DNA of 64,000 bases, taken from NCBI RefSeq assembly GCF_011602085.1, contig NZ_JAAONY010000004.1, positions 93,472-157,471 of the forward strand. Direction: 5' to 3'. Shown here one piece after another: positions 3,284 through 24,700 of the stretch (position 1 is its first letter; every line of letters starts with the position of its first letter). Source of the DNA: Pseudoteredinibacter isoporae (GTDB taxonomy: Bacteria; Pseudomonadota; Gammaproteobacteria; Pseudomonadales; Cellvibrionaceae). The notes under the pieces are model-generated. The model saw only the letters and a list, made by a program, of their open reading frames with translations. It had not been told where the DNA came from and made no database searches. The position numbers and the translations under genes were made by a program.

Positions 3284-3310
3284 TCCCCTTTTTTGACAGG
3301 AGCGTTCTGG

Positions 3311-4057: not shown

Positions 4058-4111
4058 TTCAGTTGTACAAAGCTCTCCCCGTGTGGAGAGAGCTTTGCGA
4101 CTCAGGCGGGC

Positions 4112-6328
4112 TTAGAAGCTAAAATCAGCACGCAGAGTAAAGTTACGGCCTGGCTCAGTGAAGCGAGTGATGCCGTTACCGCGAACACCAATACCTGGAC
4201 GCAGGTCATCACGACCTACAAAGCGAATGCTGTCCCAGATGTAGTATTCCTTGTCTGTAACGTTGAAGACACCGGCACGCAAAGTCAGTTGTTCTGTGAC
4301 CTTGTAGAATGCGGTGATATCCAGAACGGCAGAACTGTTGCTCAGGTAGTCACGCTCTACACGTTCGCCATCGGCGTTGGTCGAGTAGGCATCTTCGGCA
4401 TCTTTGGCTGAGGTATAGGTCAGGGTAGAGTTCACGCCCCAATCATCCTGATTGTAGCCAAAGCCCAGTTTTGCACTGAATGGCTGGATGCTGGTCAGTG
4501 GATCGCCATTTTCCTGCTCACCATCAGCATACGCAGAGCTTGCAAAAGCACTCATACCTTCGGGCGCGCCCAGAGCTTTGTGCAGATCAACACTGGCGCT
4601 GATTTCCAAACCTTTGGTATCGGCTTCGCCAACGTTGGCTGCTACAGAGTAGATGTCTTCTGCACCAGCCGCATTGATGCGGGTGCGGCTCTGAGACTCA
4701 ATGAAATCTTGATACTGATTGAAGAAACCAGTGATGCTGATACGACCGGCATCAAATTGAGTTTCGAAGGTCAGCTCGTAGTTAGTCGCAGTTTCAACAT
4801 CCAGATCCGGGTTAGGGCCGGTTCTCCAGTCATCAGCCGAGCCGCTGCGGGTATACAGGTTTTCAACCGTAGGAGCGCGGAAGGCACGACCAATCTTGGC
4901 GATAATCTTACTGTTGTCGTTGATTTTCTGAGTCAGGCCTAGAGCGCCACTGAAGAAGTCGAAGTCTTGTTTGTTCAGGCTGCCACCCAAGCGATCAGCG
5001 TAAAACTCGCTTGCTGTTGCATCGTATTCGTAATCGTCATAACGAATTCCCACTTCGAGCTGAGTCTCGTTGCTCAGGGTAATGCGATCCAGAACGAACA
5101 GGTTGTAGTTCTTGATTTCGGAATGCGGTACCAGCGCTTGACGAGTGCTTGGAATAACCTCGGTACTGCCTTCCGGAGTGAACAAACGCGTTTCTTCGTT
5201 ATCTACTTCTTTGTCAGAGTAGGCGAAACCGTAGAACAACTCATGCTCAACATCACCAGTTTGAATACGTTTGTTGAAGTCAAACTTGAATTGGGTCAGT
5301 TCCTGATCGAAAGAACGGTTGTCCACTCGGAAACCAACAACCGGAGGGCCAAAGAAGCCTGGAATATTTACACCTTGTGGTGTTTTGGCTTCAAAGTCGA
5401 TGTTCTGACGGTCGATACTCCACTCGATACGGTCAAACAAACCGGCATTCACTTCCATCTTGTGGAAGATACCTACACGCTGACGCTCGCTGGTGTCATC
5501 ACCCTGACGGTTGATGTACCAAGGGCCATTGTAGGAGCGGGCATCGGTTTTGATTTCCTGAGTGTAATCTTCAACAACCAAACCAATGGTGTTATTGCTG
5601 CTGATATCGTAGTTCAGCTTAAGCAAGATGCTGTCTGTATCGCGATCCTGAGGGTCTGGACGCTCACGCTGACTGCCGTCGATGTCGGGGCCAGCCGTAT
5701 GGTTTTCGGTTTCATGACCGCTGCGCTTGGTACCAATCAACAGGGCTTCAAACTGACCGGAACGACCCGCAAGAGCAAGACTGCCCATGGTGGATTCGCT
5801 GGCACTGTCGTAGGAGCTGCTGAAGTCCAGGCCGAAATCGTTGCCGCTTTCTTTCAGGAAATCGTCCGCATCTTTAGTGACGAAACGTACCGAACCACCC
5901 AGTGCACCGCTACCGGAAATGACTGAGTCGGCTCCTTTGGTGATGCTTACCTGCTTGACGGTTTCCAATTCCAAACCATTGCGACCACCTTTAAAGTAAC
6001 CGTAGGCCTGACCTCCTTCGTACTGGAGGGTCTCTCCTTGCTCAACACCGTCGATAGAAACAGCGATACGGTCATCGTCCACGCCGCGAATGTTGAAACC
6101 GGTACCACCCCAGCGGCCATCAGCGGCCTTGATAACAACACCAGGCAGGTCGCGAACCAGATCGTCCAGATTGTTGACCATGTTTTCTTCAATCTTCAGA
6201 TTGGAGATAACTTCCTGGTTTTCTTTGGTTTCGCCTTTTACTTTGGTCGTTTCCAGTTCCTGGACCTGAGCAAAGCTGTTGCTGCTGACCAGAGCGATGG
6301 CCAGCGCTAAAGTAGATTTTTTAAACAT
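4112..6328 (-). CDS. TonB-dependent outer-membrane receptor (last gene of 12-gene iron/TonB2 operon)
   Basis: Signal peptide MFKKSTLALAIALVSSNSFAQ, a plug domain, a long beta-barrel and the C-terminal aromatic ...RADFSF. ATG at 6328 follows a GGAG. The track start at 6349 is in-frame upstream but lacks the signal-peptide logic. Confidence 0.9.
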   Translation of the reverse strand: MFKKSTLALAIALVSSNSFAQVQELETTKVKGETKENQEVISNLKIEENMVNNLDDLVRDLPGVVIKAADGRWGGTGFNIRGVDDDRIAVSIDGVEQGETLQYEGGQAYGYFKGGRNGLELETVKQVSITKGADSVISGSGALGGSVRFVTKDADDFLKESGNDFGLDFSSSYDSASESTMGSLALAGRSGQFEALLIGTKRSGHETENHTAGPDIDGSQRERPDPQDRDTDSILLKLNYDISSNNTIGLVVEDYTQEIKTDARSYNGPWYINRQGDDTSERQRVGIFHKMEVNAGLFDRIEWSIDRQNIDFEAKTPQGVNIPGFFGPPVVGFRVDNRSFDQELTQFKFDFNKRIQTGDVEHELFYGFAYSDKEVDNEETRLFTPEGSTEVIPSTRQALVPHSEIKNYNLFVLDRITLSNETQLEVGIRYDDYEYDATASEFYADRLGGSLNKQDFDFFSGALGLTQKINDNSKIIAKIGRAFRAPTVENLYTRSGSADDWRTGPNPDLDVETATNYELTFETQFDAGRISITGFFNQYQDFIESQSRTRINAAGAEDIYSVAANVGEADTKGLEISASVDLHKALGAPEGMSAFASSAYADGEQENGDPLTSIQPFSAKLGFGYNQDDWGVNSTLTYTSAKDAEDAYSTNADGERVERDYLSNSSAVLDITAFYKVTEQLTLRAGVFNVTDKEYYIWDSIRFVGRDDLRPGIGVRGNGITRFTEPGRNFTLRADFSF

Positions 6329-6345
6329 TTGTGTCTCCCCATTAT

Positions 6346-7806
6346 TCAATTGGCCGCTATCTCAGCGTTGCCAACTAAAGGTGATCTCAACTCCAGCTCT
6401 ATATACTGGATTTCTTTTTGGCCTTTCTCGGTTTGTTTTATTGGCTTCCCTAGCTCAAATGGAATGCTTATTTTTTCGTGTCCACCATGTTCTCTGGCAG
6501 CTTCTATAATTAATTGGTATTGACCGGCCGCGACGGCCTTGCCGAAATCATCGCGTCCTGACCATTGCAGTTGATATTCACCGGCCCGGCGGGTAGGGCG
6601 AGCCATTACATCCAGCAGGGTAGGGGTTTTGCGGCCCTGACGGCGCCACCACACACTGTTTTCGCTCATCCAGCGTTCGCTGTCGCCCAGCAACAGCAAG
6701 TTCTTAACGACCTTACGTTTTTTATTTTCGATCCAAAGTGCGACATAGGGCTTGCGGTAGTTACCGCTGCGGATTTTAGGGAGAGCGAAGCGAATATTGG
6801 CCGAAGCCAATTCGGCTTTGCTGTCTTCATGATCGGATGAGTGCCAGGCGCTGCTGGCAAACTGACGGCCATCTTCGCTGATCAGCAGGGCTTCGACCTG
6901 TTTCGTTTGTTCAACCCAATCGAGAGCCTTGTCGACATCCATTGTGCTCAGGGCGGTTGCGATGGCATCGGCTTTGGTTGCCGTCGGCGCAATAACAACC
7001 ACGCTGTGCGGAAAATCTCTCGGCCAGCCATCGCGGGCCTGGAGAATGTGGCTGAACTGGCGGCGGCCAATTTTTCGGCTTCTCGCCTGATGACCACTGT
7101 AAGCGATGGCCTGATTATTCAGTTGGATGTTGCCAAGCGAGTTCTGCTGACTGTCGTCAAGTTGATTGGGGTTGGCAAGGCTTATTGCCCAGGCTTTGCT
7201 GCCGGGTTTTTGCCACTGTCGAATATCTCCGCCAATCTCTAAGGTGAGGGCATTCGCTGCAGGTGCGGCTTTGCGAGCTTGTGCAATCGCCTGGTCGATA
7301 ATGTAACCCTTGGCAATTGCCGAAAATTCCCAGCTGAAATCTTTGGGGATCTCTGCGTCGCTCAATGTGTATTCGGAATACAGGGCCTTGCGAGCGAGAG
7401 CACGAATGGCTTTACGATCCGGGCGCTCCTGTTTTTTTTCGGCTTCGTTCCACGCTTCAATGACCGAACCCAGACGGCAACTGAAGGCCATGGGCAACTC
7501 TTTTTGCCACTGTTGGCAAAGCGAAACCATGGTGTGCATTTCCGGAGACAGCGTGCTGATAACACCACGGCGTATCTGCATGAGTTCGCTCTCGCTGTCA
7601 TAGCTGCTGTAGATTTTTTCCAGGCGATGAATTTCAGCCAAGGCGGCCTGTTCAGCAAGTTTGGCTTCCTGATCGTTGGCGTCGATGCGTAAATGCATAG
7701 AGGTGCCCAAAACATTGTCGTTGTGGAAATCGACAATGCCTGCGGTCATCATTCCGCTGTTGAGTAGGCATCCGATGCTTAAAAGTGGCGTGAGAAACTG
7801 TTTCAC
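6346..7806 (-). CDS. apbE: FAD:protein FMN transferase (ApbE) fused to a C-terminal DUF2271 domain
   Basis: ApbE motifs are present: AKGYIIDQ, EIGGD, AYSGHQARSRKIGRRQFSHILQARDGWP and SVVVIAPTATKADAIATAL. The last ~130 aa (PYVALWIENKK...AAREHGGHEKISIPFELGK) is clearly paralogous to the free DUF2271 protein at 15460-15945. GTG start at 7806 gives lipoprotein-like KQFLTPLLSIGC. Confidence 0.75.
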   Translation of the reverse strand: MKQFLTPLLSIGCLLNSGMMTAGIVDFHNDNVLGTSMHLRIDANDQEAKLAEQAALAEIHRLEKIYSSYDSESELMQIRRGVISTLSPEMHTMVSLCQQWQKELPMAFSCRLGSVIEAWNEAEKKQERPDRKAIRALARKALYSEYTLSDAEIPKDFSWEFSAIAKGYIIDQAIAQARKAAPAANALTLEIGGDIRQWQKPGSKAWAISLANPNQLDDSQQNSLGNIQLNNQAIAYSGHQARSRKIGRRQFSHILQARDGWPRDFPHSVVVIAPTATKADAIATALSTMDVDKALDWVEQTKQVEALLISEDGRQFASSAWHSSDHEDSKAELASANIRFALPKIRSGNYRKPYVALWIENKKRKVVKNLLLLGDSERWMSENSVWWRRQGRKTPTLLDVMARPTRRAGEYQLQWSGRDDFGKAVAAGQYQLIIEAAREHGGHEKISIPFELGKPIKQTEKGQKEIQYIELELRSPLVGNAEIAAN

Positions 7807-7879
7807 TGATTTGGCTACTGTTTTGAAAAGGGAACAGGCGCCACGGTGTGGCGCCGTTGTGAGTGGTCTAGACCACGGC

Positions 7880-8908
7880 TTAGTAGCTGTCCGACTTGGC
7901 TGCTACCTTCTGGCTGGCGGCGATGTCGTCTGCTGAAATAACGCCATCCTGGTTTTTGTCCCAGCGATTAAAGATGCGTTTGCCGGAAATCTGCAGCTCA
8001 TCAAAGGTCATGCTCTTGTCCTTGTTATCGTCCAGAACATCAAAGCGAATATAGGTTTGTTTGATGGCCGCACGACGGGTTTTGGCGATAGCCGCGTCCA
8101 CGCGATCTTCGTACTCACCCAGATATTCGTTCAATACCAGATCGCCACTTTTATCCTGATCGGCAAGGTGAAAGACCGAGCGACGCTCGTTTACGAATTC
8201 ATCCTTGGTGATCTTGCCATCTTCGTTGGCGTCATAGATGGTGAACATACCTTTTTTACTGTGTGTGGTTGGCATGCGAATCATGGAGCGACGGCGAGCT
8301 TTTTTCTTGGCCTTTTTCTTATCGGCCTTGGCAACTTTTTCGCCTTTTTTCTTTTTCCACTTGTACTCGGGCTTTGGATCGTTTTCATCAATAACGTTAT
8401 CTTTATTGCCGTCCCAGCGAGCAAAGGTGCGCTCACCCGAAGCCTCGTATTCGGCCCAGGTCATCACTTCATTGTCGTCTTTATCGAGAGCCTTGAAGCG
8501 AACGATGGTTTGTTTTACCTGACCTTTGCGATCTTTTTCAATGCGGTCGTCCAGGCGGCCTTCATATTCGTAAACGTATTCTTCGGTGTCCAGAGTGCCG
8601 TTTTTGTTGCTATCGACACTGTCAAAGAACTTGCGACGGGAATCGTTGTACTCGCCCCAGCTGACTACGCTGTCTTTAGAGGCATCGTGATCTTCAAGAA
8701 TGCGGGCCAGACGTTCTTCTGTCATGGGCATTGGGCGGTGGCCGCGATCATCTTTCGCAGCTTTTGCCCGTTCAGTTTTGCTCAGGCCTTTGCTATCAGC
8801 CATGGCGGCTTTAGCATTGTTGGCCGAGCTTTGTTCGGCAACGGGTGTGGTCTGGGAGCAAGCGCTCAAGCTTGCAACCGCGATGGCAATCGGTAGTAAT
8901 TTTTTCAT
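7880..8908 (-). CDS. EF-hand calcium-binding lipoprotein
   Basis: MKKLLPIAIAVASLSACSQ is a lipoprotein signal. At least six EF-hand loops are present (DSNKNGTLDTEEY, DKDDNEVMTWAEY, DGNKDNVIDEND, DANEDGKITKDEF, DQDKSGDLVLNEY, DKNQDGVISADD), plus a KKKK-rich segment. ATG at 8908; the track M at 8920 is GTG. Confidence 0.8.
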   Translation of the reverse strand: MKKLLPIAIAVASLSACSQTTPVAEQSSANNAKAAMADSKGLSKTERAKAAKDDRGHRPMPMTEERLARILEDHDASKDSVVSWGEYNDSRRKFFDSVDSNKNGTLDTEEYVYEYEGRLDDRIEKDRKGQVKQTIVRFKALDKDDNEVMTWAEYEASGERTFARWDGNKDNVIDENDPKPEYKWKKKKGEKVAKADKKKAKKKARRRSMIRMPTTHSKKGMFTIYDANEDGKITKDEFVNERRSVFHLADQDKSGDLVLNEYLGEYEDRVDAAIAKTRRAAIKQTYIRFDVLDDNKDKSMTFDELQISGKRIFNRWDKNQDGVISADDIAASQKVAAKSDSY

Positions 8909-8920
8909 GGCTATTCTCAC

Positions 8921-9721
8921 TTAGATGTTTTCGAACACTTGCACACTCAGGGTGGTCGTGTGGCTGAAGGTAGGCACTTTCGAGCCTTCTGGTGCAGGTC
9001 CGCGATAGCGGGCGCGCAGCAAATATTTACCAGCCGGCAGAGTTAAAGCGGCAACGCCGTCTTTATTGGTGGCAAAGCTCATGGGCTTGCTCTTTTCTTG
9101 ATTGGCGCGGTAAGCCAGGATTTCCTGATCGGCCATGCCTTTGTTGTCCAACAGAATTTTCAGGGAGAACTCTTCGTCTGCGAACAACTCGGTCGGGTTG
9201 TCGATGGGAAGAATTTGCAAACCTTCTGCTTCAACTTTCAGTGCACCATTACTCGGAGCCTTGCGGCTGACATAGGTGTCGGCGCGAGTAATGGATTGGA
9301 AGTGAAACTTAACGTCGGCGCCTTCGGGTGCAGGTTCTTTAGGGTCCATAACCCGCTTCTCTTCGCCGTCCAAATCGTAAATCAGGAAGGTTGCGCCTTT
9401 GCGTGCGCCCGTAGTGATGCGGTAGGTGCCTTCGTCTTTCAGTTCATGTTCCAGAACCACACGGGTTTTCAGTTCGGCCATTGAATCAGGTTTGACGCTA
9501 TTGCCTTCTGGAGTGGTGACCATGAAGTGGCCCTTGTTAAAAGCGGCCTCAGGAATGAAGAATTCTTCCGCGAAGGAGGCATCAAAGCTGGCCATTTTTC
9601 CCATCACCGGCTCAAAGCTGGTTGGAGCGATATAAGGGGTATGGGCTGAACTCTGGGAAGCGGTAAAAGCTGCCAGAGAAGCCAGAAGCAATGCGTGGGG
9701 TTTACGAGGTAGGCCAAACAT
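8921..9721 (-). CDS. DUF4198-family periplasmic protein
   Basis: Signal peptide MFGLPRKPHALLLASLAAFTASQSSA followed by HTPYIAP. Beta-rich, about 265 aa. Typical partner of PepSY-TM and TonB-receptor genes. ATG 9721 has GGAG 10 nt upstream; the track start at 9736 is TTG. Confidence 0.55.
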   Translation of the reverse strand: MFGLPRKPHALLLASLAAFTASQSSAHTPYIAPTSFEPVMGKMASFDASFAEEFFIPEAAFNKGHFMVTTPEGNSVKPDSMAELKTRVVLEHELKDEGTYRITTGARKGATFLIYDLDGEEKRVMDPKEPAPEGADVKFHFQSITRADTYVSRKAPSNGALKVEAEGLQILPIDNPTELFADEEFSLKILLDNKGMADQEILAYRANQEKSKPMSFATNKDGVAALTLPAGKYLLRARYRGPAPEGSKVPTFSHTTTLSVQVFENI

Positions 9722-9874
9722 AGTCAGGTTCTCCAAGATTTAGCTGTGTTTACCGCCTGTTGCGACAAGGTGGGTCGACAAATCAGGCGAATGGTAATGC
9801 AAATAAAAATGATTCTCAATAATTATGAAGAAAAATCCACAATTCAACACGAAAATGAGGATCAGGTCGCCGGT

Positions 9875-10453: not shown

Positions 10454-10456
10454 GGT

Positions 10457-11836
10457 TTAGCGTGTGTTTTGTTGTCTTATCAGTCTCTGAAGAATGTCCA
10501 TATTTGCAATCAAGTCCCTGCGGCTCGGATCGAGCTTCAGTATGTTTTGTAAAAAGCCTTGCGCGGCCTTGTAGCGTTTTTGCAGGTAGGCCACCTGGGC
10601 ACGTTTCATCCAGGCCGCTTCGCGGCTGTTGTCCATGGAAGCCGCGCGACTCAAAAGGATGTCTGCACGGCTTAGCTGTCCTTGTTCGATACGCAATTGG
10701 GCGAGATCCAAAATGGCGTCGCCATTGGCCGGGTTGTGCTTGAGCGCTTGTTGCAGCAGGCTTGCCTGGCGTTTGCTTTGGCCTTTATTGGCCGCCAGCT
10801 TGGCACGCTGCAAACTCCAGTGACTCAGGTCTACAGAACGGTACTGTTTGCTTTGAGCTTTGCTGGCCTGAATCAGCGTGGCGAGATCATTCCAGTGACC
10901 GTGTGATGCCAACCACTCCAACATCGGGCCGAGGTAACCATAGTCTTTCAGCAGGCTGGGGCTTTGCTTGGCGATATGAACGGCACGAGAAATGTTTCCG
11001 GACTGCACATTAAGTTGCGCCAGCAGTTGCAGATTCTGCTTCTGTTTTTCGCCCAGGCGATACGCCATTTCCATCGCGGTCAGTGCGCGATTCTTTTGTT
11101 CAGCTGCGATTGCGGCATTGGCTTTGTGCAGCCAGAGTTCACGGTTGTTTGGATCATCCCGCAGCAGTTCATCAATCAAACTGTTAGCTTGCAAGTGCGA
11201 GCGCGATTGACTCAAGGCCATTAGCAAACCTTTCTGCCAGTGCTTGTTCTCGGGCGCAAGGGCGTAGGCTCTCTGATAGGCAGCGACAGAGCTGAATGCC
11301 GAATGTTCGCGCAAATTCAGGTAGCCCAGTTGACCGAACAGATCTGCGCTGGCACCGCCGAGCGCAATGGTTTGTGCGAGATACTGACGTGCCTTTCCCG
11401 CTTGATTTTGACTCAGTGCAAGCCCTGCCAGAGATTGGCTGGCCAACATATAATCGCCATGCAGTTTGATGGACTTCAGATAGTCTTTTTCAGCCTGCGA
11501 GTATTGTTTAAGTTGGGTGAGCACTTGCGCACGGACGTAAAGCAGTGCGGCGCTGGGTTCACTGGGCCAATGCTCTTTCAACTGGGTGTTGGCCCTGCTG
11601 TATTGTTTTTTATCCAGCAGTGGGCGTATGGCATCAATGATCGGAAATTCTTCGGTTTTCAACTTCGGATTGCTGCCCCCGCTGGCCAGCGGTTTGAAAC
11701 TCATGGCCCAATTGGGTTCAGGCAAAGAAATTTTGACATCCGCGCTTGCCGGCAGACTCAAAACCACTAAGCCCAGGCTGAAAACAAGGCCATTGAGGAA
11801 CTGCCGGGCTCGTATTGAGGTATTAAAAAATAGCAT
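10457..11836 (-). CDS. TPR-repeat protein (TtpD-like accessory of TonB2 systems), secreted
   Basis: Signal peptide MLFFNTSIRARQFLNGLVFSLGLVVLSLPASA, then multiple TPR-like helical repeats. ATG 11836 has GAGGT upstream; the track start at 11848 is TTG. Confidence 0.7.
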   Translation of the reverse strand: MLFFNTSIRARQFLNGLVFSLGLVVLSLPASADVKISLPEPNWAMSFKPLASGGSNPKLKTEEFPIIDAIRPLLDKKQYSRANTQLKEHWPSEPSAALLYVRAQVLTQLKQYSQAEKDYLKSIKLHGDYMLASQSLAGLALSQNQAGKARQYLAQTIALGGASADLFGQLGYLNLREHSAFSSVAAYQRAYALAPENKHWQKGLLMALSQSRSHLQANSLIDELLRDDPNNRELWLHKANAAIAAEQKNRALTAMEMAYRLGEKQKQNLQLLAQLNVQSGNISRAVHIAKQSPSLLKDYGYLGPMLEWLASHGHWNDLATLIQASKAQSKQYRSVDLSHWSLQRAKLAANKGQSKRQASLLQQALKHNPANGDAILDLAQLRIEQGQLSRADILLSRAASMDNSREAAWMKRAQVAYLQKRYKAAQGFLQNILKLDPSRRDLIANMDILQRLIRQQNTR

Positions 11837-11844
11837 AGGAGACC

Positions 11845-12528
11845 TCAACTGTGCTCCAGTTCTAGTGGCCAGATAAATTCGGCTTTTACCAACTTTCCAT
11901 CGACTTTGGGCGGCGTAAAGCGAGCTTGATTAATGGCTTGTTTTAAACTGGGTTTGAGTTCCGGATATTTTAATTGGGTGATTCTTTGCAAATGCACCTG
12001 GCCTTGCTCGTCGATCATCACCAGCAATTTGACCAGCGCTTTATTGACACCACGTTGGTACAGTCGGTGAGGAAAACTCACGCGAATCGGCGTCAGCAAT
12101 TGTGGTCGCTGGTCCAGCTGTTCCAGCCCAAAGGCCTGCCAATCGGGAGACCAATCAATGTTTAAATTAACCTGAGTCAAACTGTCGACAGGTGGTTTTT
12201 CGACTTTTATCTCGTTGACTTTGACCGGTTGTTTACTGACTTTCAAAGCTAAGCCCTGTGCTTGAAAGCTGAAATCCAGATCGGCAACCTGGCTGCTTTC
12301 CTGACTTTGTTCCTGGGCCGGTGGCGGTGGTGGGGGCGGCAGCGCAACACTGATCTGGCGCACGACCCAGTCTTTCTTTTCCGGTACCTTGTCGGATTTA
12401 CTCAGCTGCAGCAATGCCAATAAGGCGGCCAGGCTCAGACCGGCAAATAATATCGCCAGTGCCCGGCGGGCAAACGGTGAAAATGCTTGCGCTTTTGAAA
12501 GCTGTGAACTCATTGCACCCGTTGCCAT
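11845..12528 (-). CDS. tonB: Energy transducer TonB
   Basis: N-terminal TM anchor, proline-rich spacer PPPPPPPAQEQSQ and a TonB C-terminal domain. ATG 12528 has GGGAG upstream and abuts the exbD stop. Confidence 0.8.
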   Translation of the reverse strand: MATGAMSSQLSKAQAFSPFARRALAILFAGLSLAALLALLQLSKSDKVPEKKDWVVRQISVALPPPPPPPAQEQSQESSQVADLDFSFQAQGLALKVSKQPVKVNEIKVEKPPVDSLTQVNLNIDWSPDWQAFGLEQLDQRPQLLTPIRVSFPHRLYQRGVNKALVKLLVMIDEQGQVHLQRITQLKYPELKPSLKQAINQARFTPPKVDGKLVKAEFIWPLELEHS

Positions 12529-12530
12529 CG

Positions 12531-12941
12531 TTAGCTCCCTCGCTTGGTCGCGATATTGATTTGACTGGCGCCTGCCAGCTTGGCTTGGTCGATCACATCC
12601 ACCAGCAGTTGAGCCGAGGTGTTTTTATCCGCTTGAATCACCAAGGCTTTTTTCTGCTTGGCCAGGGCGTGGGCGATGGTTGCGCGCACGCCGGAGACAC
12701 CGATATTGGCACCGTCGTACATGACTTCGCCGCTGGCGCTGATGGCCAACAGAATCACATTGCGTTCCAGGCGTTCGCTCGAAACGGCTTTGGGTTTATC
12801 CACTTCAATACCGGTTTCTTTTACAAAAACCGTGGTCACGATAAAGAAGATCAGCAGAATAAAAACGACATCCAACAGCGGAGACAAGTCGATATTGTTG
12901 CCTTGTTCCTGTTCGATGCGCTGGCTGAGTCTGGATCTCAT
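12531..12941 (-). CDS. exbD: Biopolymer transport protein ExbD/TolR
   Basis: 136 aa with a single TM (LLDVVFILLIFFIVTT) and a periplasmic domain. ATG at 12941. Confidence 0.85.
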   Translation of the reverse strand: MRSRLSQRIEQEQGNNIDLSPLLDVVFILLIFFIVTTVFVKETGIEVDKPKAVSSERLERNVILLAISASGEVMYDGANIGVSGVRATIAHALAKQKKALVIQADKNTSAQLLVDVIDQAKLAGASQINIATKRGS

Positions 12942-12945
12942 ACGC

Positions 12946-13329
12946 CTAAGCCTCGCTCATGCCAGTGTCCGTCTCACCGTATTGGACAAGGCGGCTTTTA
13001 ATGTAGTGGTTGAGCAGGTAGCCGGGTACAGCCAGCAAAAGGCCAAGCTGTGTTGTGCCCAGAGCGGTGCCCACACCGCCAGCGATCAGGGTGTTGAAAT
13101 CCACATGGTCGGCGGCCATATCGGCAAAGGTTTGCAGCAAGCCCATAATGGTGCCGAGCAAACCCAACAGGGGCAGGGCCGCCAGGCAGGCGTCTGCGAG
13201 TTGACAGCGGGATTGCTTCTTTTCCAGGTCTGCGTTGGCATTTAGCAACGTATCAAACAGCAGGCTGTACGCGAGTAAGCCCACCAGCAGAATTGCCCAG
13301 AAAACCCACTGATCAAGATGCAAAATCAT
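12946..13329 (-). CDS. exbB: MotA/TolQ/ExbB proton-channel protein (short ExbB2-type)
   Basis: Core motif LPLLGLLGTIMGLLQTF...GGVGTALGTTQLGLLLAVPG. ATG at 13329 overlaps the upstream stop (ATGA). Confidence 0.75.
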   Translation of the reverse strand: MILHLDQWVFWAILLVGLLAYSLLFDTLLNANADLEKKQSRCQLADACLAALPLLGLLGTIMGLLQTFADMAADHVDFNTLIAGGVGTALGTTQLGLLLAVPGYLLNHYIKSRLVQYGETDTGMSEA

Positions 13330-14696
13330 GCGGCTCTCACCTCGGGTTTTTCAACGGGCCATTGCAATTGGCTCAGCTCGATAGCGAAAGCTTCGGCTTT
13401 ACTGTTTTGACGGCGTACCCAACGTTGCAAAAAGGCGTGCAGCAGCAGAGCAGGAATGGCGACCACCAAGCCCAATTCGGTAGTGACCAGAGCTTCAGAA
13501 ATACCGGACGATACGGCGCTGGCGTCACCCGAGCCAAAAATGGTCATCAGCTTAAAGGTTTCGATCATGCCGCTGACGGTTCCAAGCAGGCCCAACAAGG
13601 GGGCAACGGCGGCGATTACGGCGATTGTGCCTAACCATTTTTCGAGACGCTGCTTGTCGGCCATTAAACTGTTAAACAGGCGATCTTCCCTTGGTCCGAG
13701 TTGCTCTTCCGTCAAACAGATGTTGAGCAGTTGAGCTTGAATGCCCGGCTTTTTCTGTTGCTTAAACAGTGCTTGCAATTGCGCTCCCGCTTCGCGATCG
13801 CCACGCTGGAAGGCTGCGGCTGCACGACTGCCAAGCGCGGGAATCCATTTGGGAAGGCGCAACAGCTGTAGGCTCTTCAATAGGGCACATATCACGGCAA
13901 CGACACCGAAGAACAAAATCGGCAGGGCCCAAACACCGCCTTTAAAAATATGTTCACTCAGGCTTTCTTCTTGCTGTGCCAGTTTGATGGCGCGCTCCAG
14001 ACTGGGGTCAAAATGCAGTTCGCCTTGGCCTTGTTGGGCTTGTGCTTGCCAGCTGCGGCTTTGGGAATCAGAGGCCTGCAGAATAATTTCGGGAATGTCG
14101 TTGTCGTTTAACCAGCCTGCAATGGCTTGTGAATCTGGGGCTTTCGACACCGCCCAGCGAACCGGACCCAGACGGAGAACCTGGGCATCCTGAAGCTGGC
14201 CGTCAGTACTGATAATTTGCTGTGCTTTCCAGCTTGGCAGCAGGGCATCTTGCTGTTCTTGAGCCTGTTGTTCAAACAGGTTCAGCAGGGTATCACTGTT
14301 GTGGCTGTCGTCCAGATCTATCTTGTTGCCCAGATAATCGACCAGGGCATAAGCTTGATAGGCGTCTTGTTCCTGCCAGTTTTTCAGTCGGTCTTGCAGT
14401 TCTTGCAGGGCCAGAGTTTTTTCATCGGCCAGGCGCTGGATGGTGGCCGCCTTATCACGTAAGCCTTCAACTTGAATTTCTGCTTTATGAAGTCGAGTAG
14501 AAAAGGATTGTCTTTCAGCAGACTGCTTTTTCTGTAAAGCAAGAAGCTGACTTTGGGATTTTTTGATATCCCTCATCAGACCGGCTTCAAGCTGATTGTC
14601 GGCCCAACTTGCCGGGCTGAGCAGGGCGGCCGATAGCAGGGTGGTGCTAAGCAATGATCTCGAACGTTTACGTGCGAATCGTTTGAGTGTGATCAT
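13326..14696 (-). CDS. Long MotA/TolQ/ExbB-family protein with N-terminal periplasmic coiled-coil domain (TtpC-like)
   Basis: 456 aa. Signal peptide MITLKRFARKRSRSLLSTTLLSAALLSPASWA, a Gln/Leu-rich coiled coil, then the MotA/TolQ core (AVIAAVAPLLGLLGTVSGMIETF...SSGISEALVTTELGLVVAIP). Matches the TtpC component of Vibrio-type TonB2 systems. Confidence 0.75.
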   Translation of the reverse strand: MITLKRFARKRSRSLLSTTLLSAALLSPASWADNQLEAGLMRDIKKSQSQLLALQKKQSAERQSFSTRLHKAEIQVEGLRDKAATIQRLADEKTLALQELQDRLKNWQEQDAYQAYALVDYLGNKIDLDDSHNSDTLLNLFEQQAQEQQDALLPSWKAQQIISTDGQLQDAQVLRLGPVRWAVSKAPDSQAIAGWLNDNDIPEIILQASDSQSRSWQAQAQQGQGELHFDPSLERAIKLAQQEESLSEHIFKGGVWALPILFFGVVAVICALLKSLQLLRLPKWIPALGSRAAAAFQRGDREAGAQLQALFKQQKKPGIQAQLLNICLTEEQLGPREDRLFNSLMADKQRLEKWLGTIAVIAAVAPLLGLLGTVSGMIETFKLMTIFGSGDASAVSSGISEALVTTELGLVVAIPALLLHAFLQRWVRRQNSKAEAFAIELSQLQWPVEKPEVRAA

Positions 14697-15463
14697 ATGG
14701 CATCACCACTCAATGTTACGGTGATTGGCAACAGGGTGGCTTTTTCAGGCTGCTTGGCCGCTTTGATCAGGGCTTGCAGTTGATCGGCCAGTGCATTGTC
14801 GCTGTGCCACTGCCATTGATCACTCCCCGCTTCACCGTAGCCTGCGTATTGGCCATCCCGACTCAGGTACCAGCCTTTGGAAACACCGAGATAGAGCTGA
14901 TCTACCAATATTTCCTGCTCGCCCTCATCCGCGATTGGCATCAGCGCTTGATGCAGGGTGACTTTTTCTCGAAAGCGGTCAAAGCTTTTGTACATATCGA
15001 GATACAGATCCAGCCGCTTGCTGGGGTGATCCTCCAACAGAGCCAGCTTATTCAAATTTTCCTGCCAGTGTTTCGCCAGTGGTTCGGGTAGCCGAGGCAG
15101 CAGAGCGGTGACATGGCGACTGGCCGATTCCAGAGAGCCTTTGAGTTGCTGTTGGCGGGCCTCCAGAGCGTTTTGTTCGCTGGCCAGTTCTTCGCGTTTT
15201 TGCTGAGCTTTGGTTTTTAAACCGGAGTGTTTATCCAGGTGCTTTTTAAGCCCCGAGCTTTCGGCATTCAACAGCTCAAGGCGCTGTTGCAGAACCTGCT
15301 TTTCCTCTTGCCAGGATAAACGCATCTGTTCACGCTGTTGCTCGATGGCCAGCCATTGTTGCATGAGTCCTTCGAGACGGGAGGCGGGGGATTGTTGGGC
15401 GAGGCTGCCCGCTTGATAGCTCAAGCCCAGCGCCAATGAAGCTGTCAGAATCCAGCGTTTCAC
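14693..15463 (-). CDS. DUF3450-family periplasmic coiled-coil protein (TtpB-like)
   Basis: Signal peptide MKRWILTASLALGLSYQAGSLA and a coiled-coil-rich body. Its GTG start overlaps the stop of the upstream DUF2271 gene (GTGA coupling). It sits immediately 5' of the TtpC-like gene, as in TonB2 operons. Confidence 0.6.
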   Translation of the reverse strand: MKRWILTASLALGLSYQAGSLAQQSPASRLEGLMQQWLAIEQQREQMRLSWQEEKQVLQQRLELLNAESSGLKKHLDKHSGLKTKAQQKREELASEQNALEARQQQLKGSLESASRHVTALLPRLPEPLAKHWQENLNKLALLEDHPSKRLDLYLDMYKSFDRFREKVTLHQALMPIADEGEQEILVDQLYLGVSKGWYLSRDGQYAGYGEAGSDQWQWHSDNALADQLQALIKAAKQPEKATLLPITVTLSGDAI

Positions 15464-15945
15464 GACTTGGCCTCAATGCTCAGTTGGCTGAACTCTCCTT
15501 CCAGTTTGAGTTCACCTTTTTCAGTTAGCGGCCATTCGAACTTCAGACATTTGGCATTGTGGCCGCCGTGTTCCCGGGCGACTTCAGCGCAGAGCTTATA
15601 GGTGCCGGGCGCCAGTTCCTTTGCTTTGCCGTCCAATCCATCCCAAGTGAGGGTGTACACACCTGGCCCTTTTGTTGCACCGGTGACACCGTCGGCGGCA
15701 TGTTCGTTCTTGCGTAGAACGCGTCGCCAAAAGTACTTAAGATCCTTTAACCAGCGGTCATCTTCATACCACAGCTGAACCACACGCTGGGGTTTGTTTT
15801 TGCTGTTGGCAATCCAAACCGCCGCGTAGGGGCGCTCGTAATCCCCAACATTAAAGCTGGGTAACTCGATTTCAATTTGATAAGGGGCAGCCACAGTGCT
15901 GCCGACCCAGCATAGCAGGGCCATCGACAAGGTACTTCTGGACAT
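15460..15945 (-). CDS. DUF2271 domain protein, secreted; carries DGVTGAT flavinylation-type motif
   Basis: ATG at 15945. Signal peptide MSRSTLSMALLCWVGSTVAA. Paralogous to the C-terminus of the ApbE fusion (shared PYAAVWIAN... and AREHGGH). Contains NEHAADGVTGATKGPG, which matches the ApbE substrate consensus D-x-x-[ST]-G-A-[ST]. Confidence 0.7.
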   Translation of the reverse strand: MSRSTLSMALLCWVGSTVAAPYQIEIELPSFNVGDYERPYAAVWIANSKNKPQRVVQLWYEDDRWLKDLKYFWRRVLRKNEHAADGVTGATKGPGVYTLTWDGLDGKAKELAPGTYKLCAEVAREHGGHNAKCLKFEWPLTEKGELKLEGEFSQLSIEAKS

Positions 15946-15965
15946 AAATTAATAATAAGATGGCA

Positions 15966-15990
15966 AATGAGAATCGTTATTATAATTATT
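15966..15990 (-). promoter_or_regulatory. Candidate Fur box in promoter of the 12-gene iron/TonB2 operon
   Basis: aaatgagaatcgttattataattatt matches GATAATGATAATCATTATC at about 14 of 19 positions. It lies 20-45 bp upstream of the first ATG (15945) in an AT-rich intergenic region. Confidence 0.5.
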
Positions 15991-16148
15991 AAAATTAATA
16001 TGGCTAGAACTTTGTATTGAAATTGAGCGACGCGAGTAGGCTTGATCTGGCACTTATTTCCTTGGGCAAAGCACCGGAAATGGAAAAAGAGCCTTTAAAT
16101 CAAGGGGAATAGGTAGGATTTGGTGGGGGTAAAATGGAGCTGCAAGCT

Positions 16149-21956: not shown

Positions 21957-21990
21957 TGTTTTATCTTTTTAATGTTGATTTGGGAAATAC

Positions 21991-22290: not shown

Positions 22291-22293
22291 GTG

Positions 22294-22563: not shown

Positions 22564-22571
22564 AGTGTGCG

Positions 22572-24632: not shown

Positions 24633-24670
24633 AACAGGGTCTTTTAATGGTATTGGACGATAGGGCGCAT

Positions 24671-24700
24671 CGATATAATGGGTATGAATAATGCGACTGA
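24671..24700. promoter_or_regulatory. Possible Fur-box-like GATAAT hexamer repeats in receptor/AraC divergent promoter
   Basis: cgatataatgggtatgaataatgcgac contains two GATAAT-like hexamers. It lies 40-70 bp upstream of the receptor ATG. Weak match. Confidence 0.3.

What the first reader, a model, noticed from the sequence alone, without database searches (positions are those of the whole stretch)
4112..15990. 12-gene Fur-box-headed operon fusing a TonB2/TtpC energizer with an extracytoplasmic flavinylation (ApbE-DUF2271-DUF4198-PepSY) module, an EF-hand lipoprotein and a TonB-dependent receptor
All twelve genes are co-directional, with 0-20 nt gaps or overlapping start/stop codons, from ATG 15945 down to 4112. 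TonB2 systems (TtpB/TtpC/ExbB2/ExbD2/TonB2/TtpD) are established in Vibrio and marine gammaproteobacteria. ApbE plus PepSY-TM genes are established components of extracytoplasmic flavin-based electron transfer and iron-reduction systems. Here they are welded into one transcription unit with a receptor and a calcium-binding EF-hand lipoprotein. That composition implies a self-contained import-and-reduce device for a ferric substrate. I do not recall it described as a unit.
Basis: partly seen in the sequence, partly recalled or inferred. Interest (0 to 1): 0.65.

Follow-up and report, generated by a model that had tools for sequence, protein, structure and literature searches.

The report
Fur-controlled iron uptake-and-reduction gene cluster
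This is an iron-starvation locus of the marine bacterium Pseudoteredinibacter isoporae that places three already known modules side by side (an outer-membrane receptor with helper proteins, its TonB2-type motor, and a periplasmic flavin-based iron reductase); it looks like two iron-regulated units, not one 12-gene operon, and is a lineage-specific arrangement, not a new kind of system.

Summary
The twelve co-directional genes are real, and the domain calls are correct. The window comes from Pseudoteredinibacter isoporae.

The "0-20 nt gaps, one operon" claim fails at two junctions:
- The 153-nt PepSY/DUF4198 gap holds a second sigma-70 promoter with a Fur box. It is conserved in six related loci.
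- The 73-nt EF-hand/ApbE gap holds a hairpin whose structure is conserved.

The locus therefore reads as two Fur-box-headed units:
- DUF2271, the six-gene TonB2 cassette and PepSY.
- DUF4198, EF-hand, ApbE-DUF2271 and the receptor.

The second block is a widespread module in its own right. Among 80 species with an ApbE-DUF2271 fusion, 54 have the EF-hand gene nearby, 55 DUF4198 and 51 a receptor. Counterparts are experimentally iron- and Fur-regulated in Caulobacter (CC2193-94, CC3059-63) and Alteromonas (MASE_18630-18645). PepSY/ApbE/DUF2271/DUF4198 clusters with TonB genes were catalogued in 2021.

The exact 12-gene order occurs only in the Pseudoteredinibacter clade. The receptor belongs to the haemoglobin/transferrin/lactoferrin family, not the siderophore family.

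Only the stand-alone DUF2271 carries the flavinylation motif. All 85 ApbE-fused DUF2271 domains examined lack it.

Verdict: a new variant of a known kind, of modest interest.

The parts
15961..16006 (-). Promoter 1 with Fur-box-like operator: -35 TAGCCA at 16006-16001, -10 TATAAT at 15984-15979, invariant block TATAATAACGATTCTCATTTGCCA at 15984-15961.
   Evidence: Promoter scan. Five overlapping matches of at least 13/19 to the Fur consensus. The block is invariant in 5 orthologous loci with diverged flanks. Zur consensus matches are only at background level.
15460..15945 (-). Gene 1: secreted stand-alone DUF2271 with the canonical flavinylation motif DGVTGAT (acceptor Thr91). It is the predicted ApbE substrate.
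   Evidence: Pfam, E = 4e-38. Motif. The motif's role was shown in another species (PMC8238504).
14693..15463 (-). TtpB-like protein (DUF3450, 256 aa, signal peptide).
   Evidence: Pfam, E = 4e-26. Same length and domain as V. vulnificus TtpB2 (PMC6957404).
13326..14696 (-). TtpC-like protein: a long N-terminal extension plus a C-terminal MotA/ExbB channel domain.
   Evidence: Pfam MotA_ExbB at residues 339-435 of 456. NCBIfam exbB2 scores below its cut-off.
12946..13329 (-). Short ExbB (127 aa).
   Evidence: Pfam.
12531..12941 (-). ExbD.
   Evidence: Pfam, E = 7.5e-30.
11845..12528 (-). TonB-like protein: N-terminal TM helix, poly-proline tract, divergent C-terminal domain.
   Evidence: Sequence. 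TonB_C scores 21.2 bits, below the gathering score of 24.6.
10457..11848 (-). TtpD-like TPR protein (463 aa, signal peptide).
   Evidence: Multiple TPR Pfam hits. TtpD2 is a 425-aa TPR protein (PMC6957404).
9875..10453 (-). PepSY-like membrane protein (PF16357): 3 predicted TM segments and His15/His38/His133 conserved in 96-100% of 55 homologues. It is the presumed haem-binding transmembrane electron conduit.
   Evidence: Pfam, E = 5e-37. Conservation and hydropathy. Haem/His model from FoxB (bioRxiv 10.1101/2024.03.13.584918).
9791..9823 (-). Internal promoter 2 with Fur-box-like operator in the PepSY/DUF4198 gap: -35 TTGAGA at 9819-9814, -10 TACCAT at 9796-9791.
   Evidence: Promoter scan. 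Fur matches. The block is conserved in 6 loci, including a distant Spongiibacteraceae MAG where it approaches the consensus. 50% of 54 DUF4198 upstream regions have a Fur match of at least 13/19, against 5.5% of random segments.
8921..9721 (-). Periplasmic DUF4198 protein. The likely start is ATG 9721. The mature N-terminus is predicted to be His (SSA|HTPY).
   Evidence: Pfam, E = 1e-31. The N-terminal His is conserved in 44/44 homologues. The family profile hits Zcp 9MHI at E = 1.8e-16. DUF4198 proteins bind metals: Zn (PMC12663993) and Ni through the N-terminal His (PMC12537917).
7880..8908 (-). Lipoprotein with eight EF-hand loops in two 4-EF-hand halves, and an invariant MPTTHS motif between the halves. 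The likely start is ATG 8908.
   Evidence: Pfam. Loops and lipobox. Alignment. AF2 model, pLDDT 84.5. Only generic EF-hand fold matches.
7837..7855 (-). GC-rich hairpin (GGCGCCAC-ACC-GTGGCGCC, then TGTTCCCTTT) in the EF-hand/ApbE gap. It is a candidate attenuator or mRNA-stabilising element.
   Evidence: Terminator scan. A hairpin is present at the same place, with different stem sequences, in L008, L009 and L001.
6346..7806 (-). ApbE (FAD:protein FMN transferase) fused to a C-terminal DUF2271 domain. That domain has ARPT(405)R in place of the TGAT motif. The GTG 7806 start is needed to include the conserved N-terminus.
   Evidence: Pfam, ApbE 2.6e-48 and DUF2271 1.5e-38. Invariant ApbE-type motifs. 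Motif comparison.
4112..6328 (-). TonB-dependent receptor of the haemoglobin/transferrin/lactoferrin family. The likely start is ATG 6328.
   Evidence: Pfam. NCBIfam TIGR01786 scores 468 bits (cut-off 323.75). Siderophore family TIGR01783 scores 111 bits (cut-off 223.5). Orthologues accompany the module in other gammaproteobacteria.
4068..4097 (-). Strong hairpin after the receptor stop codon, facing a convergent gene. It marks the end of the cluster.
   Evidence: Sequence. Fold -26.8 kcal/mol, z = -3.9.

Best explanation
This is a Fur-repressed iron-acquisition locus of Pseudoteredinibacter isoporae. Three known modules lie head to tail and are read from two iron-regulated promoters.

**Unit 1 (15945-9875)** encodes:
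- a secreted DUF2271 protein with the canonical flavinylation site;
- a six-gene TonB2-type energiser (TtpB, TtpC, ExbB, ExbD, TonB, TtpD);
- a PepSY-like membrane protein.

**Unit 2 (9721-4112)** encodes:
- a DUF4198 periplasmic metal-binding protein;
- an eight-EF-hand calcium-binding lipoprotein;
- an ApbE flavin transferase fused to a motif-less DUF2271 domain;
- a TonB-dependent receptor of the haemoglobin/transferrin/lactoferrin family.

**Proposed working**
1. Under iron limitation Fur leaves both operators.
2. The receptor, powered by the TonB2-type complex, brings a ferric species that is probably not a classical siderophore into the periplasm.
3. ApbE attaches FMN to Thr91 of the stand-alone DUF2271.
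4. The PepSY-like protein passes electrons across the inner membrane to this flavoprotein.
5. The flavoprotein reduces Fe(III).
6. DUF4198 captures the released metal ion through its N-terminal histidine.
7. The iron enters the cell through a transporter encoded elsewhere.

The EF-hand lipoprotein is a conserved partner of DUF4198 whose role is unknown. A hairpin after its gene probably lowers expression of ApbE and the receptor relative to the two periplasmic proteins.

**Shown here:** gene content, motifs, conserved operators, synteny.
**Shown elsewhere:** flavinylation of DUF2271; Fur and iron control of homologous units; metal binding by DUF4198 proteins.
**Inferred:** substrate, electron path, roles of DUF4198 and the EF-hand protein, and coupling to this TonB.
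For: - Domains.
- Two promoter-plus-Fur-box footprints are conserved in 5-6 orthologous loci with diverged flanks.
- Fur-consensus matches are enriched 9-fold upstream of DUF4198 genes across 54 loci.
- Other Fur-like boxes in the window sit at iron-type genes (TBDR/PepSY_TM pairs, FumC), so the consensus works in this genome.
- The DUF4198-EF-hand-ApbE/DUF2271-receptor block recurs as a free-standing module. Of 80 fusion-bearing species, 54 have the EF-hand gene, 55 DUF4198 and 51 a receptor within 10 kb.
- Energiser genes lie nearby in 25 of 80 loci. TonB2-type cassettes lie nearby in 7 of 80, in four different arrangements and lineages including Opitutales.
- The stand-alone DUF2271 carries DG.TGAT.
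- ApbE-type motifs are invariant in the fusion.
- PepSY His15, His38 and His133 are conserved.
- The N-terminal His of DUF4198 is conserved in 44/44 homologues, and the profile hits Zcp.
- Published: DUF2271 flavinylation, the PepSY-like iron-reduction model and 231 clusters with TonB.
- Published: Caulobacter CC2193 (EF hand+DUF4198, next to the CC2194 receptor) and CC3059-63 are derepressed in a fur mutant and bound by Fur.
- Published: the Caulobacter PepSY-like locus is needed for fitness in EDTA.
- Published: Alteromonas MASE_18630-18645 (ApbE, calcium-binding protein, DUF4198, receptor) is induced 34- to 124-fold under iron limitation.
Against: - There are no expression or binding data for this organism.
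- Individual Fur matches (13-14 of 19) are no better than about 13 chance hits per window. The case rests on position and conservation.
- No clear conserved terminator separates unit 1 from unit 2, so read-through giving a 12-gene transcript is possible.
- The cluster encodes no cytoplasmic electron donor and no inner-membrane iron transporter.
- Characterised DUF4198 proteins bind Zn or Ni, not iron.
- The TonB C-terminal domain and the ExbB/ExbD genes score below curated family cut-offs.
- Nothing explains why an ApbE is fused to a DUF2271 without the motif.
- Nothing explains what eight calcium sites do.
Confidence: 0.6

Rival explanations
1. The twelve genes form a single operon with one promoter upstream of gene 1, and the long gaps are only spacers.
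For: - All genes are co-directional, and nine junctions are overlaps or gaps of 17 nt or less.
- The 12-gene order is kept in five loci of the Pseudoteredinibacter clade.
- No conserved terminator follows the PepSY gene.
Against: - A sigma-70-like promoter with a Fur box lies in the PepSY/DUF4198 gap. It is conserved in six loci, including one that lacks the TonB2 cassette.
- DUF4198-led blocks stand alone elsewhere and are commonly Fur-box-headed.
- In Caulobacter the DUF4198/EF-hand unit has its own validated Fur-controlled promoter.
- A structure-conserved hairpin lies in the EF-hand/ApbE gap.
Confidence: 0.15
2. The TonB2-type cassette is the cell's general-purpose energiser for many receptors. 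It is parked next to this module but is not dedicated to it. Under this reading the locus is a co-regulated neighbourhood and not a self-contained device.
For: - In Vibrio the six-gene TonB2 system serves several receptors (PMC6957404).
- The same window holds two more receptor/PepSY_TM pairs with no energiser genes of their own.
- 55 of 80 related loci have no energiser within 10 kb.
Against: - TonB2-type or ExbB/ExbD genes sit next to this module in at least five different arrangements across gamma- and alphaproteobacteria and Opitutales. That is more than chance parking would give.
- In the window the cassette is inserted between DUF2271 and PepSY, which are adjacent in relatives (L003). 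It is translationally coupled to DUF2271 by a 4-nt overlap.
Confidence: 0.35
3. The system handles something other than ferric iron. The cargo could be haem, as the receptor family might suggest. It could be a divalent metal such as Zn, Ni or Co, as characterised DUF4198 proteins suggest.
For: - The receptor passes the haemoglobin/transferrin/lactoferrin family cut-off and carries FRAP and NPDL motifs.
- Zcp binds Zn and IsDUF4198 binds Ni.
- The Caulobacter neighbour receptor is annotated as a hemin receptor.
Against: - The operators match Fur, not Zur. The Zur consensus matches only at background level.
- Homologous units respond to iron and Fur.
- No haem oxygenase, haem-binding protein or haem ABC transporter is in the cluster.
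- There is no His between FRAP and NPDL.
- The receptor is below the cut-off of the haem-specific family TIGR01785 (282.5 bits against 316.85).
- A flavin reductase has an obvious use for Fe(III) and none for Zn or Ni.
Confidence: 0.12
4. The flavin module is not an iron reductase. It instead supplies electrons for another periplasmic task under iron starvation, such as protection against oxidants or repair of periplasmic proteins.
For: - Flavinylated extracytosolic systems serve many functions (PMC8238504).
- The Caulobacter EF-hand/DUF4198 operon includes a glutathione-peroxidase-like gene.
- No direct iron-reductase assay exists for any DUF2271 protein in the papers read.
Against: - The module is consistently linked to receptors and Fur boxes.
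- The PepSY-like homologue VciB has reported ferric reductase activity (cited).
- The Caulobacter locus is needed under chelation stress.
Confidence: 0.05

Closest known systems
PepSY-like flavinylation-associated electron transfer systems (Meheust et al. 2021, eLife, PMC8238504), e.g. Caulobacter CC3059-63 / CCNA_03155-03159
   Same: - PF16357 PepSY-like membrane protein, ApbE, DUF2271 with the [S/T]GA[S/T] motif, and secreted DUF4198.
- Fur control.
- The proposed role is periplasmic Fe(III) reduction.
- 231 such clusters also carry a TonB gene.
   Different: - There is no NAD(P)H/flavodoxin-type reductase gene.
- ApbE is fused to a second, motif-less DUF2271.
- DUF2271 is separated from PepSY by a six-gene TonB2 cassette.
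- An EF-hand lipoprotein and a receptor are included.
Caulobacter CC2193-CC2194 (EF hand protein + DUF4198 next to a 'hemin receptor' TBDR) and Alteromonas macleodii MASE_18630-18645
   Same: - The same quartet or trio of DUF4198, a calcium-binding EF-hand protein, (ApbE-DUF2271) and a TonB-dependent receptor.
- These are among the most strongly iron-limitation-induced genes.
- The Caulobacter promoter is directly Fur-bound.
   Different: - Those loci have no TonB2 cassette or PepSY gene in the same string.
- The Caulobacter EF-hand protein is the short (4-loop) alphaproteobacterial type.
- Homology to the window proteins is inferred from annotation and from my synteny survey. It was not tested by direct alignment.
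TonB2/TonB3 six-gene systems of Vibrio and Teredinibacter (TtpB-TtpC-ExbB-ExbD-TonB-TtpD)
   Same: - Same six genes in the same order.
- DUF3450 TtpB of about 255 aa, a long TtpC and a TPR TtpD.
- A Fur box upstream in the Vibrio TonB2 system.
   Different: - A DUF2271 gene precedes ttpB and a PepSY gene follows ttpD.
- ExbB, ExbD and TonB score below the NCBIfam and Pfam cut-offs, so the cassette is divergent.
- Whether it is closer to TonB2 or TonB3 was not determined.
DUF4198 metal-binding proteins Zcp (N. gonorrhoeae, Zn) and IsDUF4198 (Ideonella, Ni)
   Same: - Secreted proteins of the same Pfam family, with profile-level similarity to Zcp.
- A mature N-terminal His, as in the Ni protein.
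   Different: - Here the protein is under Fur-type, not Zur- or NikR-type, signals.
- Conserved positions other than His1 are mostly Glu and Tyr, not the three His of Zcp.
- The window protein has Asn at a position that is His in 84% of relatives.
VciB / FoxB-type PepSY membrane ferric reductases
   Same: Membrane proteins with conserved histidines, linked to TonB-dependent receptors and iron reduction.
   Different: - The window protein is the short three-helix PF16357 type that partners with a flavinylated DUF2271.
- The longer PF03929 type also occurs twice elsewhere in the window.

Membership tests
TonB2-type six-component energiser (TtpB-TtpC-ExbB-ExbD-TonB-TtpD) | Six genes in the order ttpB, ttpC, exbB, exbD, tonB, ttpD. 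| tested here: met
   Order 14693-15463 through 10457-11848. Matches the description in PMC6957404 and PMC10734418.
TonB2-type six-component energiser (TtpB-TtpC-ExbB-ExbD-TonB-TtpD) | TtpB is a DUF3450 protein of about 255 aa. TtpD is a TPR protein of about 425 aa. TtpC is a long MotA/ExbB protein. | tested here: met
   DUF3450, 256 aa. TPR, 463 aa. MotA_ExbB confined to residues 339-435 of 456 (literature).
TonB2-type six-component energiser (TtpB-TtpC-ExbB-ExbD-TonB-TtpD) | Equivalog-level similarity to exbB2 (TIGR02805), ExbD_2 (TIGR02804) and the TonB C-terminal domain. | tested here: not met
   exbB2 scores 31-54 bits against a cut-off of 135. ExbD_2 scores 42.6 against 123. TonB_C scores 21.2 against 24.6. 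This is a divergent relative, not an equivalog.
TonB2-type six-component energiser (TtpB-TtpC-ExbB-ExbD-TonB-TtpD) | All six proteins are needed to energise receptor-mediated uptake. | not testable with these tools
   This needs deletion mutants and uptake assays.
PepSY-like flavinylation-associated electron transfer system (Meheust et al. 2021) | A PepSY-like membrane protein (PF03929/PF16357) with conserved histidines. | tested here: met
   PF16357, E = 5e-37. His15, His38 and His133 are conserved in 96-100% of 55 homologues.
PepSY-like flavinylation-associated electron transfer system (Meheust et al. 2021) | An extracytosolic ApbE flavin transferase. | tested here: met
   ApbE domain, E = 2.6e-48, with an N-terminal signal/lipobox-like sequence. 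Invariant KG, GGD, SG and ADA..T positions across 20 fusions. Activity itself is not testable here.
PepSY-like flavinylation-associated electron transfer system (Meheust et al. 2021) | A DUF2271 substrate carrying the [S/T]GA[S/T] flavinylation motif. | tested here: met
   The stand-alone DUF2271 (gene 1) has DGVTGAT, residues 88-91.
PepSY-like flavinylation-associated electron transfer system (Meheust et al. 2021) | The same motif in the DUF2271 domain fused to ApbE. | tested here: not met
   The fusion has ARPT(405)R at the aligned position. 0 of 85 fusions carry [ST]GA[ST]; 81 have [RKE][PAE][TS]R.
PepSY-like flavinylation-associated electron transfer system (Meheust et al. 2021) | A cytosolic NAD(P)H/flavin donor, fused or adjacent (present in many but not all clusters). 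| tested here: not met
   None of the 12 genes encodes one. Relatives have a flavodoxin (L003) or a flavodoxin/NAD-binding reductase (L006).
Fur regulon | A Fur-box operator overlapping the promoter. | tested here: met
   Two sites at 15961-15999 and 9791-9823 overlap -10/-35 elements and are conserved in orthologous loci. The Zur consensus matches at background level.
Fur regulon | Fur binding and iron-dependent expression. | not testable with these tools
   This is shown only for homologous units in Caulobacter (EMSA, lacZ) and Alteromonas (RNA-seq).
TonB-dependent siderophore receptor (TIGR01783) | A score at or above the curated family cut-off. | tested here: not met
   111.2 bits against a cut-off of 223.5.
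TonB-dependent haemoglobin/transferrin/lactoferrin family receptor (TIGR01786) | A score at or above the curated family cut-off. | tested here: met
   468 bits against a cut-off of 323.75, full-length match. The haem-specific TIGR01785 (282.5 against 316.85) and transferrin-specific TIGR01776 (330.9 against 468.8) are not met.
DUF4198 periplasmic metal-binding proteins (Zcp / IsDUF4198) | The Pfam DUF4198 domain, a secretion signal and a mature N-terminal histidine. | tested here: met
   E = 1.2e-31. A|HTxY is conserved in 44/44 homologues. The profile hits 9MHI at E = 1.8e-16.
DUF4198 periplasmic metal-binding proteins (Zcp / IsDUF4198) | The three-histidine metal site of Zcp. | tested here: inconclusive
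   The profile alignment to Zcp covers only the C-terminal half. Few His residues are conserved besides His1, and the window protein has Asn180 where 84% of relatives have His.
EF-hand calcium-binding proteins | Canonical 12-residue loops D-x-[DNS]-x-[DNSG]-x6-[ED], in pairs. | tested here: met
   Eight loops. EF-hand Pfam families score above their cut-offs. The AF2 model has paired helix-loop-helix units. Calcium binding itself is not testable here.
Lanmodulin (lanthanide-binding EF-hand protein) | The NCBIfam LanM equivalog score, and Pro at loop position 2. | tested here: not met
   49 bits against a cut-off of 135. No loop of the window protein has Pro at position 2. The fold similarity is only that of a generic four-EF-hand unit (TMt about 0.6).

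The most novel reading that the evidence does not exclude
The block of DUF4198, EF-hand lipoprotein, ApbE-DUF2271 and a transferrin/haemoglobin-family receptor is a distinct and widespread TonB-dependent pathway for non-siderophore iron. It has not been functionally characterised. In this reading, a calcium-loaded EF-hand protein and an N-terminal-His DUF4198 form a periplasmic metal relay. The ApbE-fused DUF2271 is then one of two things. It may be flavinylated at a non-canonical [R/K]-P-[T/S]-R site. Or it may be a pseudo-substrate docking domain that recruits the real substrate, the stand-alone DUF2271, which the Pseudoteredinibacter lineage has brought into the same locus together with its own TonB2 motor.
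Probability: 0.2. Interest if true: 0.6.

Novelty: new variant of a known kind. Interest (0 to 1): 0.35.

Why it matters
The value of the locus is as a compact natural assembly. One 12-kb stretch gathers the receptor, its probable motor, the flavin transferase, the flavinylation substrate, the membrane electron conduit and two periplasmic metal or calcium binders. That makes Pseudoteredinibacter, or its cloned cluster, a convenient system for testing the still unproven model that flavinylated DUF2271 reduces imported Fe(III).

It could also show what DUF4198 and the EF-hand protein do. Both rank among the most iron-induced genes in Caulobacter and Alteromonas and still have no assigned function.

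The receptor family points to iron sources other than classical siderophores. That bears on how marine heterotrophs obtain iron.

The finding that all ApbE-fused DUF2271 domains lack the accepted flavinylation motif is a specific, testable point for the flavinylation field.

Tried and rejected
- Exact-sequence look-up of the window's PepSY protein found nothing. The organism was identified from 100%-identical database proteins instead.
- PDB sequence searches with DUF4198 and PepSY as single sequences gave no hits. The EF-hand protein gave only weak calsenilin-type hits.
- A profile of DUF4198 did reach Zcp.
- The fold search of the EF-hand model returned only generic EF-hand proteins, none below E = 0.001. 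The lanmodulin idea was rejected.
- Rfam found no RNA family in the window.
- The Zur-box alternative was rejected.
- A terminator between PepSY and DUF4198 was looked for. A hairpin over the stop codon exists in the window and in L009, but not in L008 or L001, so the result is inconclusive.
- Literature searches for "EF-hand" with ApbE, DUF4198 or TonB found nothing. The spelling "EF hand" retrieved the Caulobacter paper.
- The Meheust supplements held as text do not mention EF-hand or DUF3450.
- Alice & Crosa 2012 on the V. vulnificus TonB3 operon is not held. I therefore could not check whether TonB3 clusters carry similar accessory genes.
- I did not resolve whether the cassette is closer to TonB2 or TonB3.

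Full report
**What is there.** The region holds twelve minus-strand ORFs from 15945 down to 4112. Pfam assigns them in order:
- DUF2271 (161 aa)
- DUF3450 (256 aa)
- a 456-aa protein whose last 100 residues are a MotA/ExbB channel
- a short ExbB
- ExbD
- a TonB-like protein with a TM helix, a poly-Pro tract and a weak TonB_C domain at 21 bits
- a 463-aa TPR protein
- PepSY_TM_like_2
- DUF4198
- an EF-hand protein
- an ApbE+DUF2271 fusion
- a Plug plus barrel TonB-dependent receptor

Database proteins 100% identical to three of these come from Pseudoteredinibacter isoporae.

**Likely start codons.** These are ATG 9721 for DUF4198, ATG 8908 for the EF-hand protein and ATG 6328 for the receptor. 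For the fusion it is GTG 7806. The 450-aa database version starts after the family-conserved FHxDNVLGTS segment.

**Transcription architecture.** Nine of the eleven junctions are 4-nt overlaps or gaps of 17 nt or less. Two are long: 153 nt between PepSY and DUF4198, and 73 nt between the EF-hand gene and ApbE.

- *Upstream of gene 1.* A TAGCCA-16-TATAAT promoter overlaps an AT-rich tract with five overlapping matches of at least 13/19 to the Fur consensus. A 24-nt block, TATAATAACGATTCTCATT(T/C)GCCA, is invariant in five orthologous loci whose flanks are almost unalignable.
- *The 153-nt gap.* It contains TTGAGA-17-TACCAT overlapping a second Fur-like site. This block is conserved in six loci, including a Spongiibacteraceae MAG that lacks the TonB2 cassette. 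There the site approaches the consensus, at 18/19 in the same contig.
- *Across related loci.* Half of 54 DUF4198 genes have a Fur match of at least 13/19 within -200..+60 of the start. Only 5.5% of random segments of the same loci do.
- *Zur.* The Zur consensus matches only at background level.
- *The 73-nt gap.* It holds a GC-rich hairpin followed by a T-rich tail. A hairpin occupies the same gap in three orthologous loci with different stem sequences. This suggests a retained attenuator or stabiliser.
- *After the PepSY gene.* No terminator is consistently conserved here, so read-through from unit 1 cannot be excluded.
- *After the receptor.* A strong hairpin closes the cluster.

On sequence evidence the locus is two Fur-box-headed units, or an operon with a strong internal iron-regulated promoter. 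It is not a single welded unit.

**Comparative genomics.** I anchored on the ApbE-DUF2271 fusion, fetched 80 species-representative loci and annotated them with profiles built from the window proteins.

- The exact 12-gene order occurs only in the Pseudoteredinibacter clade: a second P. isoporae strain, two related MAGs and a metagenome contig.
- A Spongiibacteraceae MAG has receptor <- -> TonB-ExbB-ExbD-flavodoxin-DUF2271-PepSY-DUF4198-EF-hand-ApbE/DUF2271. There DUF2271 directly precedes PepSY. In the window the TonB2 cassette sits between these two genes.
- Psychrosphaera and Thalassotalea carry a TonB2-type cassette divergent from EF-hand-ApbE-receptor. Parahaliea has TtpC-TtpB divergent from DUF4198-EF-hand-ApbE-receptor. 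An Opitutales MAG has the cassette upstream of receptor-ApbE-PepSY-DUF4198-EF-hand.
- About twenty Xanthomonadales genomes carry just DUF4198-EF-hand-ApbE/DUF2271-receptor.
- Many alphaproteobacteria have EF-hand-DUF4198 divergent from ApbE-PepSY, with ExbB-ExbD-ExbD and a receptor nearby.

Counts over the 80 loci, within 10 kb of the fusion:

| Feature | Loci |
|---|---|
| EF-hand gene | 54 |
| DUF4198 | 55 |
| Receptor | 51 |
| PepSY | 54 |
| Any ExbB/ExbD energiser | 25 |
| TonB2-type cassette | 7 |
| Stand-alone DUF2271 | 6 |

The gammaproteobacterial receptors next to the fusion are orthologues of the window receptor, at 300-640 bits.

**Protein details.**
- The stand-alone DUF2271 carries DGVTGAT, the motif shown to be flavinylated by ApbE in Amantichitinum.
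- The DUF2271 domain fused to ApbE aligns without gaps but reads DVMARPTR. None of 85 fusions has [ST]GA[ST]; 81 have [RKE][PAE][TS]R, so the acceptor Thr/Ser is kept but the Gly-Ala is lost.
- ApbE-type motifs are invariant in the fusion.
- The PepSY-like protein has three hydrophobic segments and three near-invariant histidines. This fits the haem-binding model drawn from FoxB.
- DUF4198 has an invariant His as its first mature residue, in 44/44 homologues. The crystallised Ni-binding family member also has this feature. The family profile reaches the Zn-binding Zcp structure.
- The EF-hand protein has a lipobox, eight canonical loops in two 4-loop halves, a Lys-rich linker and an invariant MPTTHS motif. 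It models confidently, with pLDDT 84.5. Its fold matches only generic EF-hand proteins. Alphaproteobacterial and verrucomicrobial versions have one 4-loop unit.
- The receptor exceeds the NCBIfam cut-off for the haemoglobin/transferrin/lactoferrin family (468 bits against 323.75). It is far below the siderophore-receptor cut-off (111 against 223.5).

**What is already known.**
- Meheust et al. 2021 defined PepSY-like flavinylation clusters. They counted 3220 clusters, 2833 with DUF2271 and 1500 with DUF4198. They noted Fur repression and counted 231 clusters with a TonB gene.
- In Caulobacter, CC3059-63 (PepSY-type protein, DUF2271, DUF4198, ApbE, flavoprotein reductase) and CC2193 (EF hand protein plus DUF4198, next to the CC2194 "hemin receptor") are among the most derepressed genes in low iron and in a fur mutant. 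Promoter fusions and Fur gel shifts support this. The PepSY-like locus is needed for fitness in EDTA.
- In Alteromonas macleodii, four consecutive genes are induced under iron limitation. They are MASE_18630 (ApbE-DUF2271), 18635 (calcium-binding protein), 18640 (DUF4198) and 18645 (receptor). Their log2 fold changes are 5.7, 5.3, 5.1 and 7.0. The authors did not class this receptor as a siderophore transporter.
- The six-gene TonB2 cassette is established in Vibrio and Teredinibacter, and all six genes are required in V. vulnificus.

Each module, and the pairwise associations between them, has been seen before. What I did not find described is the consolidation of all three into one string. 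I also found no functional account of the EF-hand partner or of the motif-less fused DUF2271.

**Most likely working.**
1. Iron limitation derepresses both promoters.
2. The receptor, energised by the TonB2-type complex, imports a ferric species.
3. ApbE flavinylates the stand-alone DUF2271.
4. The PepSY-like protein feeds it electrons across the membrane.
5. Fe(III) is reduced.
6. DUF4198 takes up the released ion.
7. An importer encoded elsewhere completes uptake.

Only the sequence features and their conservation are shown here. Regulation, flavinylation and metal binding are shown for homologues. The substrate, the electron path and the roles of DUF4198 and the EF-hand protein are inferred. 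I put about 0.6 on this overall picture.

**Rivals.**
- A strictly single-promoter operon: 0.15.
- A general-purpose energiser not dedicated to this receptor: 0.35. This is compatible with the main picture.
- A non-iron or haem cargo: 0.12.
- A non-reductase redox role: 0.05.

**Verdict.** This is a lineage-specific arrangement of known Fur-regulon modules, so I class it as a new variant of a known kind and give it modest interest (0.35). The most useful leads are the conserved EF-hand partner, the receptor family and the motif-less ApbE-fused DUF2271.

Noticed in passing
window 6346-6810 (C-terminal domain of the fusion); loci L008-L087: All 85 ApbE-DUF2271 fusions examined lack the accepted [S/T]GA[S/T] flavinylation motif in the fused DUF2271. 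81 have [RKE][PAE][TS]R at the aligned position, which keeps only the acceptor Thr/Ser. Only 6 of 80 such loci have a canonical stand-alone DUF2271 within 10 kb. In most genomes the substrate of these ApbEs is therefore unclear.
   Followed up: partly
window 20334-25885 and 43924-48006: There are two further pairs of a TonB-dependent receptor and a long PepSY_TM (PF03929) protein. The first is PepSY_TM 20334-21956(-) with receptor 22572-24884(-); this receptor has a roughly 138-aa N-terminal extension before the plug. The second is PepSY_TM 43924-45717(-), divergent from receptor 45895-48006(+), with a Fur-like box at 45907-45925. The window is an iron-uptake island.
   Followed up: partly
window 26810-28183 (-), boxes at 28172-28190 and 28616-28634: A class II fumarase (FumC-type) gene has Fur-consensus matches (13-14 of 19) at and upstream of its start. 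This fits the usual iron-sparing switch.
   Followed up: no
window 16199-18091 (-): A 630-aa multi-pass membrane protein with no Pfam match lies directly upstream of the cluster's promoter on the same strand. It is not present at this position in the metagenomic orthologous locus L001.
   Followed up: no
window 7700-7806: The database version of the ApbE-DUF2271 protein (P0121, 450 aa) starts at Met37. It omits the signal/lipobox-like N-terminus and the family-conserved FHxDNVLGTS segment. The GTG at 7806 is the better start.
   Followed up: yes
window 7880-8908; alignment A5: The EF-hand family has an invariant MPTTHS motif between its two 4-EF-hand halves. A related RGH/ASH histidine motif lies ahead of the first half. 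These are conserved histidines outside the calcium loops, with no known role.
   Followed up: no
window 8921-9721, residue 180 of the ORF: The window's DUF4198 has Asn at a position that is His in 84% of 44 relatives, next to an invariant Pro. Other conserved positions are mostly Glu and Tyr. This hints at a harder ligand set than the three-His zinc site of Zcp.
   Followed up: no
L003 8621-9166 / L011; L006 13228-14637: Relatives supply what the window lacks. A flavodoxin gene lies just upstream of DUF2271 in the Spongiibacteraceae MAG. A flavodoxin/NAD-binding reductase follows ApbE in Hydrogenophaga. Both are candidate cytoplasmic electron donors.
   Followed up: no
L005 10614-11111 (Shewanella sp. 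FJAT-52076): The stand-alone DUF2271 of the minimal PepSY-DUF2271-DUF4198 triad reads DGVSSAT, with Ser in place of Gly. This is a near-canonical variant of the flavinylation motif.
   Followed up: no
window 1895-4057 (+): A three-domain multicopper oxidase (1895-3283) and a carbon-nitrogen hydrolase (3293-4057) converge on the end of the cluster. A multicopper oxidase beside an iron-uptake locus could be a ferroxidase.
   Followed up: no
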